IMG/VR virus record: IMGVR_UViG_2728369188_000006
Location: 1 to 16,660 of that record
Direction: 5' to 3' (one strand)
Source of the DNA: a virus
Lineage: Duplodnaviria; Heunggongvirae; Uroviricota; Caudoviricetes
DNA: 16,660 bases
Position 1 is the stretch's first letter; the number at the start of each line of letters is the position of its first letter. The translations under genes and the position numbers were made by a program. Below the pieces are notes generated by a model that was not told the origin of the DNA, did no database searches, and worked only from the letters and a program-made list of their open reading frames with translations. Positions 2,175-2,455 of this stretch are shown one piece after another.

Positions 2175-2440
2175 AGTAATAATGCCGGTATCAGTTTTTA
2201 TCATCACTCTGTTTGCTGTTTAACCAGACTGGTGTGATTACTGATGCAGTGAAGACCTTCCCGCATCCTGACTCACACAGCGATCGACCCTTTGTGTCCT
2301 GCCCTGGACCTGTCGGTTGCCGGAAGCGCCTTCATGCGAGGCGTCTCCTCACCGATGCGCGTGACTCAAGAAGGGCCTGACGGTTTGTCTCGTTACTGTC
2401 CTGTCCGGGTTATCTGTCTGGAGATTCAACTCTGTTTCCT
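2175..2440 (+). ncRNA. Candidate bridge RNA (IS110-family guide RNA) in the non-coding left end; extent approximate
   Basis: LE 2276-2285 (CACAGCGATC) is identical to the left target flank 2166-2174 plus the first base of the right flank. LE 2299-2309 (CTGCCCTGGAC) is the reverse complement of 3546-3556, spanning the right junction. LE 2369-2376 (AGAAGGGC) matches the element's right end 3538-3545. The order (target-matching segments, then donor-matching segment) fits the described IS110/IS621 bridge RNA layout. Confidence 0.4.
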
Positions 2441-2455
2441 CACAGGAGCTCTGTT

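What the first reader, a model, noticed from the sequence alone, without database searches (positions are those of the whole stretch)
2175..2455. Non-coding left end of the nested IS110-family element carries guide-like segments matching both flanks of its own insertion site (candidate bridge RNA)
The 281-nt left end contains CACAGCGATC (2276-2285), identical to the left target flank plus the first base across the junction, and 14 nt later CTGCCCTGGAC (2299-2309), the exact reverse complement of the right junction (3546-3556). One guide has target-strand sense and the other is antisense, which is the arrangement of left and right target guides in the target-binding loop of IS110/IS621 bridge RNAs. 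A 9-mer plus an 11-mer in the correct orientations within 281 nt is very unlikely by chance. A further 8-mer (2369-2376) matches the element's right end and is a possible donor-binding segment. This particular element and its programmed target may be uncharacterised.
Basis: partly seen in the sequence, partly recalled or inferred. Interest (0 to 1): 0.8.

Follow-up and report, generated by a model that had tools for sequence, protein, structure and literature searches.

The report
ISEc21 guide RNA, already characterised
The left end of this nested insertion sequence does encode an RNA guide that matches both sides of its insertion site, but the element is ISEc21, whose guide RNA ("seekRNA"/bridge RNA) and target were tested experimentally and published in 2024, so this is a correct rediscovery and not a new finding.

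Summary
They match the left target flank in sense and the right junction in antisense, and shuffles rarely reproduce this.

The element (2175-3548, 1374 bp) is ISEc21. It is inserted without duplication in an IS3-family transposase gene, and intact copies of that gene show the empty site CACAGCGAT|CAGGGCAG.

Siddiquee et al. 2024 (Nat Commun 15:5235) used ISEc21 as their IS110-type model. RNA from IS bp 8-179 co-purifies with the transposase. A 58-nt piece (bp 90-147, window 2264-2321) is enough for transposition. Replacing bp 90-110, which hold the first guide, retargeted the element. Durrant et al. 2024 also list ISEc21 with a predicted left-end bridge RNA.

My own comparison of 80 relatives adds three points:
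- The first guide covaries with the left flank.
- The last 3 nt of the second guide (GAC) pair with the element's own right end (GTC) and covary with it, like a handshake guide.
This loop matches the element's ends and lies outside the published RNA.

Verdict: interpretation supported, already known, low interest.

The parts
2175..3548 (+). ISEc21 (IS110 family, IS110 group), 1374 bp, inserted without target duplication
   Evidence: 100% identical copies in E. coli genomes are annotated 'IS110-like element ISEc21 family transposase'. The empty site is contiguous in intact host copies. The length equals the published 1374 bp (a 1574-bp synthesised span with 100-bp flanks).
2166..2174 (+). Left target flank CACAGCGAT (His-Ser-Asp codons of the host IS3-family transposase)
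   Evidence: The published native target is CACAGCGATCAGGG.
3549..3556 (+). Right target flank CAGGGCAG
2188..2247 (+). 5' stem-loop of the left-end RNA
   Evidence: Long hairpin in the MFE and centroid folds. It lies inside the published long seekRNA. I did not test it comparatively.
2182..2353 (+). Published 'long seekRNA' construct (IS bp 8-179)
   Evidence: Siddiquee 2024 plasmid table, mapped with IS bp n = window 2174+n.
2264..2321 (+). Published minimal 58-nt seekRNA2 (IS bp 90-147), sufficient for transposition
2257..2326 (+). Target-binding loop module: outer stem 2257-2264/2319-2326, closing stem 2267-2272/2312-2316 (U2269 bulged), internal loop holding the two guides
   Evidence: Single-sequence MFE, constrained fold, RNAalifold and pair counts on 27 relatives. 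All 8 outer-stem pairs show compensatory changes.
2276..2285 (+). Left target guide (LTG) CACAGCGAU(C). [quoted passage not shown]
   Evidence: It covaries with the left flank in relatives. This is the segment replaced in the published reprogramming (bp 90-110).
2286..2298 (+). Short stem-loop between the guides (GAC/GUC stem)
   Evidence: The stem is nearly invariant and the loop length varies among relatives.
2299..2306 (+). Right target guide (RTG) CUGCCCUG, antisense to right flank 3549-3556
   Evidence: The partner of flank position +2 covaries: A:U 24, G:C 8, G:U 3, no mismatch.
2307..2309 (+). GAC, complementary to the element's own last three bases GTC (3546-3548); handshake-guide-like
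   Evidence: Its last base covaries with right-end position -3 (G:C 30, A:U 10, 4 exceptions). The concept comes from Hiraizumi 2024.
2336..2352 (+). Spacer hairpin between the two loops (GCGAGG/CCUCAC)
   Evidence: 4 of 6 pairs with compensatory changes.
2360..2407 (+). Donor-binding loop module: closing stem 2360-2365/2403-2407 (U2362 bulged). It is pseudo-symmetric to the target-binding loop and lies outside the published long seekRNA.
   Evidence: Sequence parallel: CUGAC-UCA-[guide]-GAC-loop-GUC-[guide]-CU-GUCGG versus GUGAC-UCA-[guide]-GAC-loop-GUC-[guide]-CU-GUCCG.
2369..2378 (+). Left donor guide (LDG) AGAAGGGCCU. Its first 8 nt are identical to right end 3538-3545.
   Evidence: The guide is invariant in 27 of 27 relatives aligned. 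The right-end motif was recovered in most of the 83 loci but was also the regex used to select loci for analysis. No covariation is possible.
2379..2389 (+). Short stem-loop between the donor guides (GAC/GUC stem)
   Evidence: pair 134-142 of the alignment: CG 23, UA 3, UG 1.
2390..2397 (+). Right donor guide (RDG) UCGUUACU. UUACU is antisense to the first five bases of the element, AGTAA (2175-2179).
   Evidence: It covaries with left-end position +4 (A:U 38, C:G 5, 1 exception).
2398..2400 (+). GUC, complementary to the last three bases of the left target (GAT/GAC); handshake-guide-like
   Evidence: It pairs with GAT (one G-T wobble) or GAC in all 44 non-redundant relatives except four whose left flank is not the GAY codon (L003) or whose left end was probably misplaced by my regex (L032, L064, L072). 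It is invariant.
2456..3532 (+). DEDD transposase/recombinase, 358 aa
   Evidence: Pfam PF01548 (E 1.7e-19) and PF02371 (E 2.2e-12). Three substitutions against the ISfinder ISEc21 protein (I41T, R116G, L351I).
3529..3534 (+). -35 hexamer TTGACT of the promoter that forms only when the ends are joined in the circle
   Evidence: Joined ends give TTGACT-17 nt-AATAAT, 10 of 12 matches. The junction promoter was reported for ISEc21. No + strand promoter-like site exists in the linear copy.
2178..2183 (+). -10 hexamer AATAAT of the circle-junction promoter
3538..3548 (+). Right end AGAAGGGCGTC (left donor in the circle)
   Evidence: Recovered in most of the 83 loci as AGAAGGGC(G/A)TC. About eight lack a recognisable right end, and rare variants occur (L033 ...GGGCACC, L054/L066 truncated).

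Best explanation
Region 2175-2455 is the non-coding left end of ISEc21. It encodes the element's guide RNA, called seekRNA by Siddiquee et al. and bridge RNA by Durrant et al.

How it works, with the basis for each step:
- Transcription (sequence plus literature). When the element circularises, its ends form a promoter (TTGACT in the right end, AATAAT in the left end) that transcribes the left end.
- Target loop (published RNA and retargeting; the loop architecture and base-pairing scheme are inferred here). The RNA binds the 358-aa DEDD recombinase. Its first internal loop (2257-2326) holds two guides. [quoted passage not shown] Together they specify CACAGCGAT|CAGGGCAG, the His-Ser-Asp|Gln-Gly codons around the second catalytic Asp of IS3-family transposases.
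- Handshake bases (inferred from sequence and covariation). The three bases after the second guide (GAC) pair only with the element's own right end (GTC). They become fully paired only once the donor top strand has been exchanged onto the target.
- Donor loop (inferred here, not tested experimentally). A second internal loop (2360-2407) has the same architecture. It carries AGAAGGGCCU (sense of the right end), UUACU (antisense of the left end) and GUC (complementary to the target's GAY). I read this as the donor-binding loop.

The published 58-nt RNA is therefore the target-binding half of a two-loop RNA.
For: Identity: the element is 100% identical to annotated ISEc21 copies, and the protein differs at 3 of 358 residues from ISfinder ISEc21.

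Published experiments on ISEc21:
- Deleting bp 20-150 abolishes circle formation.
- bp 8-179 supplied in trans restores transposition.
- RNA from this region co-purifies with the transposase.
- bp 90-147 suffices for transposition.
- Replacing bp 90-110 together with the donor flanks retargets insertion.
- The target is CACAGCGATCAGGG.

Durrant 2024 lists ISEc21 with a predicted left-end bridge RNA.

My tests:
- The matches are beyond chance.
- The empty site is present in intact host copies.
- Across non-redundant relatives (41 usable loci), LTG identity to the left flank is 7.63 of 9 against 6.35 +/- 0.17 for permuted pairings, with 0 of 20,000 permutations as high.
- RTG versus flank position +2 shows no mismatches. 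The GAC/GAU extension covaries with right end GTC/ATC. The RDG covaries with left end AGTAA/AGTCA.
- On 27 sequences the proposed structure has 93.7% of cells paired against 87.5% in shuffles and 33-49% when partners are slid. Fifteen pairs show compensatory changes.
- RNAalifold and the single-sequence MFE recover the same architecture.
Against: - Rfam 15 has no matching family, so there is no independent model hit.
- The full 281-nt region folds only marginally better than shuffles (z = -1.81).
- For the donor loop, the published RNA-seq long form and all trans constructs end at bp 179, upstream of the loop. A 58-nt RNA without it supported transposition of a mini-element.
- The LDG and its right-end partner are (near-)invariant, so that pairing has no covariation support.
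- RDG covariation rests on one clade of 5 sequences.
- RTG complementarity as a whole is only weakly above permuted pairings (6.09 against 5.89 of 8; 307 of 20,000 permutations as high).
- Target and donor share no core dinucleotide, unlike IS621.
Confidence: 0.93

Rival explanations
1. The short target-binding RNA (seekRNA, bp 90-147 or 8-179) is the complete functional guide of ISEc21. On this view the conserved module at 2360-2407 is not a donor-binding loop. It is a structured 5' leader of the transposase mRNA, for example one that controls translation or stability, and its resemblance to the ends is due to shared ancestry or to protein-binding sites.
For: - The published long RNA ends near bp 179, and the 58-nt RNA alone supported transposition of a mini-element with only 29 bp of left end and 16 bp of right end.
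- The module lies 49-96 nt upstream of the start codon.
- The LDG is invariant, so RNA-DNA pairing is not demonstrated for it.
Against: - The module copies the target-binding loop element by element: bulged-U closing stem, UCA linker, 10-nt guide, GAC/GUC hairpin, 11-nt guide, CU linker.
- Its guides match the right end in sense and the left end in antisense, the orientation known for IS621 donor loops.
- The RDG changes from UUACU to UGACU exactly in the relatives whose left end changes from AGTAA to AGTCA.
- In the published deletion/complementation assay the donor plasmid (deletion of bp 20-150) still carried this module.
- For other IS110 elements, RNA holding only the target-binding loop gives only partial or direct-transfer reactions. 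The field already calls the ISEc21 seekRNA 'TBL-only'.
Confidence: 0.15
2. The matching segments act at the DNA level and not as RNA guides. They would be subterminal repeats bound by the transposase, or remnants of target sequence carried into the element.
For: In principle, sequence matches between an element's interior and its flanks can arise from imprecise excision or recombination. The guide segments are DNA as well as RNA.
Against: - One match is sense and the other antisense.
- Both lie in unpaired strands of a structure with compensatory changes.
- Both covary with flanks that differ between independent insertions.
- RNA from this region co-purifies with the transposase and works in trans from another plasmid.
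Confidence: 0.02
3. The matches are coincidental.
For: The antisense 8-mer alone is not rare in a C/T/G-rich region (406 of 20,000 shuffles).
Against: - The 9-nt sense match occurred in 9 of 20,000 shuffles.
- Both segments lie at fixed positions of a conserved structure in 40 or more relatives.
- Both change with the flanks.
Confidence: 0.01

Closest known systems
ISEc21 seekRNA (Siddiquee, Pong, Hall & Ataide, Nat Commun 2024; PMC11187229)
   Same: It is the same element: 1374 bp, the same target CACAGCGAT|CAGGG, and a transposase identical at 355 of 358 residues. The first is the segment that was experimentally reprogrammed.
   Different: Nothing differs for the core finding. The paper does not describe the second loop at IS bp 186-233 or the pairing of GAC with the right end. 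Its longest RNA construct ends at bp 179.
IS621 bridge RNA (Durrant et al. and Hiraizumi et al., Nature 2024; PMC11208160, PMC11208158)
   Same: - It is encoded in the left end upstream of a DEDD (RuvC-like plus Tnp domain) recombinase and is driven by a promoter formed at the circle junction.
- It has a 5' stem-loop and then two pseudo-symmetric internal loops, each built as stem, 5' guide, short hairpin, 3' guide.
- The 5' guides pair with bottom strands and the 3' guides with top strands.
- The bases 3' of each 3' guide pair with the other DNA partner (handshake guides).
- The first loop is variable and the second is conserved across relatives.
   Different: - IS621 recombines at a CT core present in both target and donor. 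Here the ends are unambiguous and no dinucleotide is shared (target ...GAT|CAG..., donor ...GTC|AGT...).
- The RNA is longer (about 225 nt against 177 nt) and has a spacer hairpin between the loops.
- The recombinase is 358 aa against 326 aa and belongs to a different branch of the family.
- I ran no sequence or covariance-model comparison with IS621.
ISMch6 and other relatives in the ISEc21 cluster
   Same: The published case of 'natural redirection' shows altered guide bases with an altered flank. The 80 relatives fetched here show the same behaviour across Enterobacterales, Vibrio, Halomonas, Burkholderiales and Alphaproteobacteria.
   Different: Relatives use other synonymous versions of the same protein-coding target, for example CACTCCGAT or CATACCGAC on the left and CGCGG on the right. 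Some carry a second LTG-like module that ISEc21 lacks.
IS1111-group seekRNAs (ISEc11, ISKpn4, ISPa11)
   Same: They use the same kind of RNA-guided DEDD transposase.
   Different: The guide RNA is encoded downstream of the transposase gene. The order of the top- and bottom-strand matches is reversed, and these elements have subterminal inverted repeats.

Membership tests
ISEc21 (ISfinder entry, IS110 family) | Nucleotide identity over the full 1374 bp, and the encoded transposase | tested here: met
   100% identity over 1374 bp to copies annotated as ISEc21. 355 of 358 residues are identical to the ISfinder protein given in Siddiquee's source data.
ISEc21 (ISfinder entry, IS110 family) | Insertion at CACAGCGAT|CAGGG in IS3-family transposase genes, without target duplication | tested here: met
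.
IS110-family DEDD recombinase | N-terminal DEDD/RuvC-like domain plus C-terminal Tnp domain | tested here: met
   Pfam PF01548 at residues 13-150 and PF02371 at residues 238-315, both above their cut-offs.
IS110-group bridge RNA / seekRNA | Encoded in a long non-coding left end upstream of the recombinase gene, with a short right end | tested here: met
   281 nt lie before the ATG and 16 nt after the stop codon.
IS110-group bridge RNA / seekRNA | Target-binding internal loop with a sense left guide and an antisense right guide | tested here: met
IS110-group bridge RNA / seekRNA | Guides covary with target flanks across orthologues | tested here: met
   LTG: 0 of 20,000 permutations reach the observed identity. 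RTG position 7 against flank position +2 shows no mismatch. RTG as a whole is weakly significant.
IS110-group bridge RNA / seekRNA | Donor-binding internal loop whose guides match the joined right and left ends | tested here: met
   Loop at 2360-2407. The LDG has 8 of 8 identity to the right end. The RDG is antisense to AGTAA and covaries with left-end position +4. The function of this loop in ISEc21 has not been shown experimentally.
IS110-group bridge RNA / seekRNA | Handshake bases 3' of the RTG and RDG that pair with the other DNA partner after top-strand exchange | tested here: met
   GAC pairs with right end GTC (with covariation). GUC pairs with left target GAY (invariant).
IS110-group bridge RNA / seekRNA | Core dinucleotide shared by target and donor and covered by all four guides (CT in IS621) | tested here: not met
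   The junctions are unambiguous: GAT|AGT on the left, GTC|CAG on the right, GAT|CAG in the empty site. No shared dinucleotide and no duplication are present. Only positions -3 (G) and, in GAC targets, -1 (C) are common to both. The published paper also reports no duplication.
IS110-group bridge RNA / seekRNA | [quoted passage not shown] | tested here: met
   TTGACT-17-AATAAT is formed only by the joined ends, and the linear copy has none. This was reported experimentally for ISEc21.
IS110-group bridge RNA / seekRNA | The RNA binds the recombinase and is required for recombination | not testable with these tools
   Published for ISEc21.
Rfam RNA family | Match to a curated covariance model | tested here: not met
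   cmscan of 1900-3800 at E up to 10 returned only chance-level hits (CRISPR-DR57, mir-205, SNORD48), none of them in the region of interest.

The most novel reading that the evidence does not exclude
The native ISEc21 guide is a two-loop bridge RNA of about 225 nt (IS bp ~8-233), and the published seekRNA is only its target-binding half. The donor loop at 2360-2407 was missed because RNA-seq and constructs stopped at bp 179.

In this clade the two loops work without a shared core dinucleotide. A single discriminating handshake position (-2: A in the target, T in the donor) favours insertion.

In addition, distant relatives carry two alternative left-guide modules that share one right guide. 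This would let one element hit two synonymous-codon versions of the same conserved protein motif.
Probability: 0.5. Interest if true: 0.4.

Novelty: already known. Interest (0 to 1): 0.15.

Why it matters
As a discovery it does not matter, because the element, its RNA, its target and its reprogrammability are published.

It is useful as a check. A reader working from raw sequence alone recovered the correct guide segments, their strand logic and even the donor-binding segment.

The extra observations bear on an open discussion in the field, which is how ISEc21's 'TBL-only' seekRNA recognises its donor. The native left end does contain a conserved donor-binding loop just downstream of the published RNA. 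The deletion/complementation experiments retained it, and only the mini-element assays lacked it. This fits the view that transposition driven by the short RNA alone is a flank-dependent side pathway and not evidence that this clade lacks donor guidance.

Tried and rejected
- Rfam 15 scan at a permissive E-value found no bridge RNA family and only chance hits.
- Folding the whole 281 nt gives a weak z-score (-1.81). The MFE sequesters half of the first guide in a helix with 2312-2320, and the same happens for the 58-nt RNA alone. I do not trust that pairing, because the comparative structure puts 2312-2316 in the closing stem.
- I looked for a shared core dinucleotide by shifting the boundaries by one or two bases. 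No shift fits the observed junctions.
- I considered GGCGTC at 2340-2345, which matches the last 6 nt of the right end, as a donor guide. I rejected it because it lies in the 3' arm and loop of the spacer hairpin and is not conserved in relatives (GGCTTC, GGTTTC).
- ATTACTGA at 2237-2244, antisense to the circle junction, lies in the 5' hairpin stem and is not conserved. I did not pursue it.
- My first regex parse of the donor loop picked the wrong GTCC and was redone.
- Automated detection of the left end failed or was off in a few loci (L032, L064, L072). Their left flanks were not used as evidence.
- I did not use the protein-database, structure-prediction or metagenome searches, because the identification was unambiguous without them.

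Full report
**Observation.**
- 2276-2285 is CACAGCGATC.
- 2299-2309 is CTGCCCTGGAC, the exact reverse complement of 3546-3556.
- 2369-2376 (AGAAGGGC) equals 3538-3545.

Two refinements matter.
- The tenth base of the first segment does not match the element's first base (A2175). It matches the first base of the right flank, so the 10-mer equals the uninterrupted target.
- The 11-mer is 8 nt of right flank plus the element's own last three bases (GTC).

In 20,000 dinucleotide-preserving shuffles of 2205-2455, a junction-anchored sense match of at least 9 nt appeared 9 times. An anchored antisense match of at least 8 nt appeared 406 times.

**What the element is.** The 1374-bp stretch 2175-3548 is 100% identical to copies in many complete E. 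coli genomes that are annotated 'IS110-like element ISEc21 family transposase'.
- Its ORF (2456-3532, 358 aa) has the DEDD_Tnp_IS110 and Transposase_20 domains. It differs at three residues from the ISfinder ISEc21 protein.
- It interrupts an IS3-family transposase gene. Joining the two flanks gives a sequence that is contiguous at 99.8% identity in hundreds of E. coli records.
- In those records the site reads ATGTTCCACAGCGATCAGGGCAGCC. The only difference is window 2131 (A, making a TAG stop, against G).
- The boundaries are therefore exact and there is no target duplication.
- PGAP names the host 'IS3 family transposase', not IS911.

**Prior knowledge.** A full-text search for ISEc21 returned Siddiquee et al. 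2024 (PMC11187229), which used this element as its IS110-type model.
- Deleting IS bp 20-150 abolishes circle formation, and bp 8-179 supplied in trans restores transposition.
- RNA from this region co-purifies with the transposase as a 74-nt 'seekRNA' and a longer form.
- A 58-nt RNA (bp 90-147) suffices for transposition.
- They retargeted insertion by replacing bp 90-110 together with the donor flanks. The native target string in their plasmid table is CACAGCGATCAGGG.

The reprogrammed part holds the first one. Durrant et al. 2024 also list ISEc21 with a predicted bridge RNA in the left end. Later work refers to the ISEc21 seekRNA as a 'TBL-only RNA'. Rfam 15 has no corresponding family.

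**Independent comparative test.** I fetched 80 loci encoding relatives (67-98% amino-acid identity) from a species-representative genome collection.
- The right end AGAAGGGC(G/A)TC and the left end AGTAA(T/G)AATG are conserved in most of the loci; about eight lack a recognisable right end and a few a recognisable left end.
- The flanks are nearly always the same protein-coding site, His-Ser-Asp | Gln/Arg-Gly of IS3-family transposases, in different synonymous spellings.
- That variation gives a natural covariation experiment. The 9-nt left guide tracks the left flank, for example CACAGTGAT, CATACCGAC and AACACCGAT.
- Mean identity is 7.63 of 9 against 6.35 +/- 0.17 when flanks are permuted among elements, and 0 of 20,000 permutations are as high.
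- The right-guide base opposite flank position +2 is U with A (24), C with G (8) or U with G (3), never a mismatch.
- The right guide as a whole is only weakly above permutation (307 of 20,000).

**The extra three bases.** GAC (2307-2309) follows the right guide and complements the element's own GTC. In relatives whose right end is ATC it is GAU. The counts are G:C 30 and A:U 10, with 4 exceptions. This is the arrangement that Hiraizumi et al. named handshake guides: bases 3' of the right target guide that pair with the donor top strand after exchange.
- Against the empty target (GAT|CAGGGCAG) this stretch has one mismatch and one wobble.
- Against the right junction it pairs 11 of 11.

**A second loop.**
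- First loop: CUGAC-UCA-[CACAGCGAUC]-GAC-loop-GUC-[CUGCCCUGGAC]-CU-GUCGG.
- Second loop: GUGAC-UCA-[AGAAGGGCCU]-GAC-loop-GUC-[UCGUUACUGUC]-CU-GUCCG.

Its features:
- The 5' guide has the sense of the right end.
- The 3' guide contains UUACU, antisense to the element's first bases AGTAA.
- The last three bases, GUC, complement the target's GAY.
- The module is almost invariant in 27 aligned relatives.
- In the five non-redundant relatives whose left end is AGTCA, the guide reads UGACU (A:U 38, C:G 5, one exception).

This is the donor-binding loop expected from the IS621 model. It also fits Durrant's remark that the second loop is the more conserved one. It lies at IS bp 186-233, beyond the published long seekRNA.

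**Structure.** On the 27-sequence alignment, the six proposed helices have 93.7% of cells paired. The comparison values are 87.5% in column shuffles and 33-49% when partners are slid by 1-3 columns. Fifteen pairs show changes on both sides.
- The helices are the outer stem, two closing stems each with a bulged U, two short inner hairpins and a spacer hairpin.
- RNAalifold predicts the same architecture without my input.
- So does the single-sequence MFE of 2255-2330.
- The inner GAC/GUC stems and most of the closing stems are invariant, so they carry no covariation evidence.

**Promoter.** Joining the ends gives TTGACT (3529-3534), 17 nt, AATAAT (2178-2183), 10 of 12 matches. The scan finds no + strand promoter-like site in the integrated copy. 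The junction promoter was reported for ISEc21.

**Differences from IS621.** No core dinucleotide is shared by target and donor, and shifting the boundaries does not create one. Only position -3 (G) is common, plus position -1 when the target codon is GAC. Position -2 (A in the target, T in the donor) is read by A2308 in the first loop and U2399 in the second, each matching the other partner. I infer that the top strands are cut exactly at the element boundaries. I cannot say where the bottom strands are cut.

**Reconciling with the 58-nt result.**
- The deletion/complementation assay (deletion of bp 20-150) kept the second loop in the donor plasmid.
- Only the mini-element assay lacked it, and that assay needed the donor to be flanked by the target.
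- Work on other IS110 elements shows that single-loop RNAs can drive flank-dependent or partial reactions.

The simplest reading is that ISEc21 has a two-loop RNA and that the short RNA is its abundant target-binding half. This step is inference.

**Verdict.** Interest is low. The donor loop, the handshake bases and the dual left-guide modules in relatives are modest additions.

Noticed in passing
Related loci L035, L039, L050, L051, L053, L060, L070, L077, L078, L081, L082 (IS bp ~30-60 of each left end): About 10 of 44 non-redundant relatives carry a second copy of the 5' half of the target-binding loop, (C/T)TGAC-YCN-[9-mer]-(C/A)GAC, roughly 60 nt upstream of the main one and with a different 9-mer. 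The observed left flank matches the upstream 9-mer 9 of 9 in L077 (AATACCGAT), L081 and L082, and matches the main one in the others. This may mean two alternative left guides share one right guide. ISEc21 in the window lacks it.
   Followed up: partly
Related loci L005, L007, L014, L057 (right junctions): The left flank is the usual IS3-type His-Ser-Asp site, but the right flank is unrelated and starts AGTAA, AGTTG or AGCAA, resembling the element's own left end (AGTAAT). These look like one-ended joints or joints guided by the donor loop, or remnants of tandem copies.
   Followed up: no
Related locus L003, just left of the ISEc21-like copy (locus ~2955-3000): The left flank reads ...CAGTAATGCTCTGCTAAGAAGGGCTCAC. 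This looks like a ~27-nt remnant made of a left-end start and a right-end tail of a related element. A second IS110-family transposase gene lies immediately downstream in the same IS3 fragment.
   Followed up: no
window 2130-2132: The host IS3-family transposase reading frame has a TAG stop 42 nt upstream of the insertion. Intact copies elsewhere have TGG (a single G-to-A change at 2131), so the host copy is doubly inactivated.
   Followed up: yes
window 1-16660 (context): The nested elements sit in a lambdoid prophage-like region. The identical E. coli locus L001 has an integrase pseudogene and an excisionase gene to the left. To the right are genes for phage replication proteins O (3894-4568) and P, then a 1302-aa inverse autotransporter gene (5737-9645).
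   Followed up: no
window 2205-2211: CACTCTG inside the 5' hairpin equals the first 7 nt of the left guide used by many relatives (CACTCTGAU). It may be a vestige of the upstream guide module seen in distant relatives, or it may be coincidence.
   Followed up: no
window 2372-2376 with 2398-2402: RNAalifold also pairs part of the left donor guide (AGGGC) with GUCCU, the handshake bases plus linker. Both sides are conserved (four of the five pairs invariant; one shifts GC to GU), so I cannot tell whether this is a real self-masking helix or an artefact.
   Followed up: no
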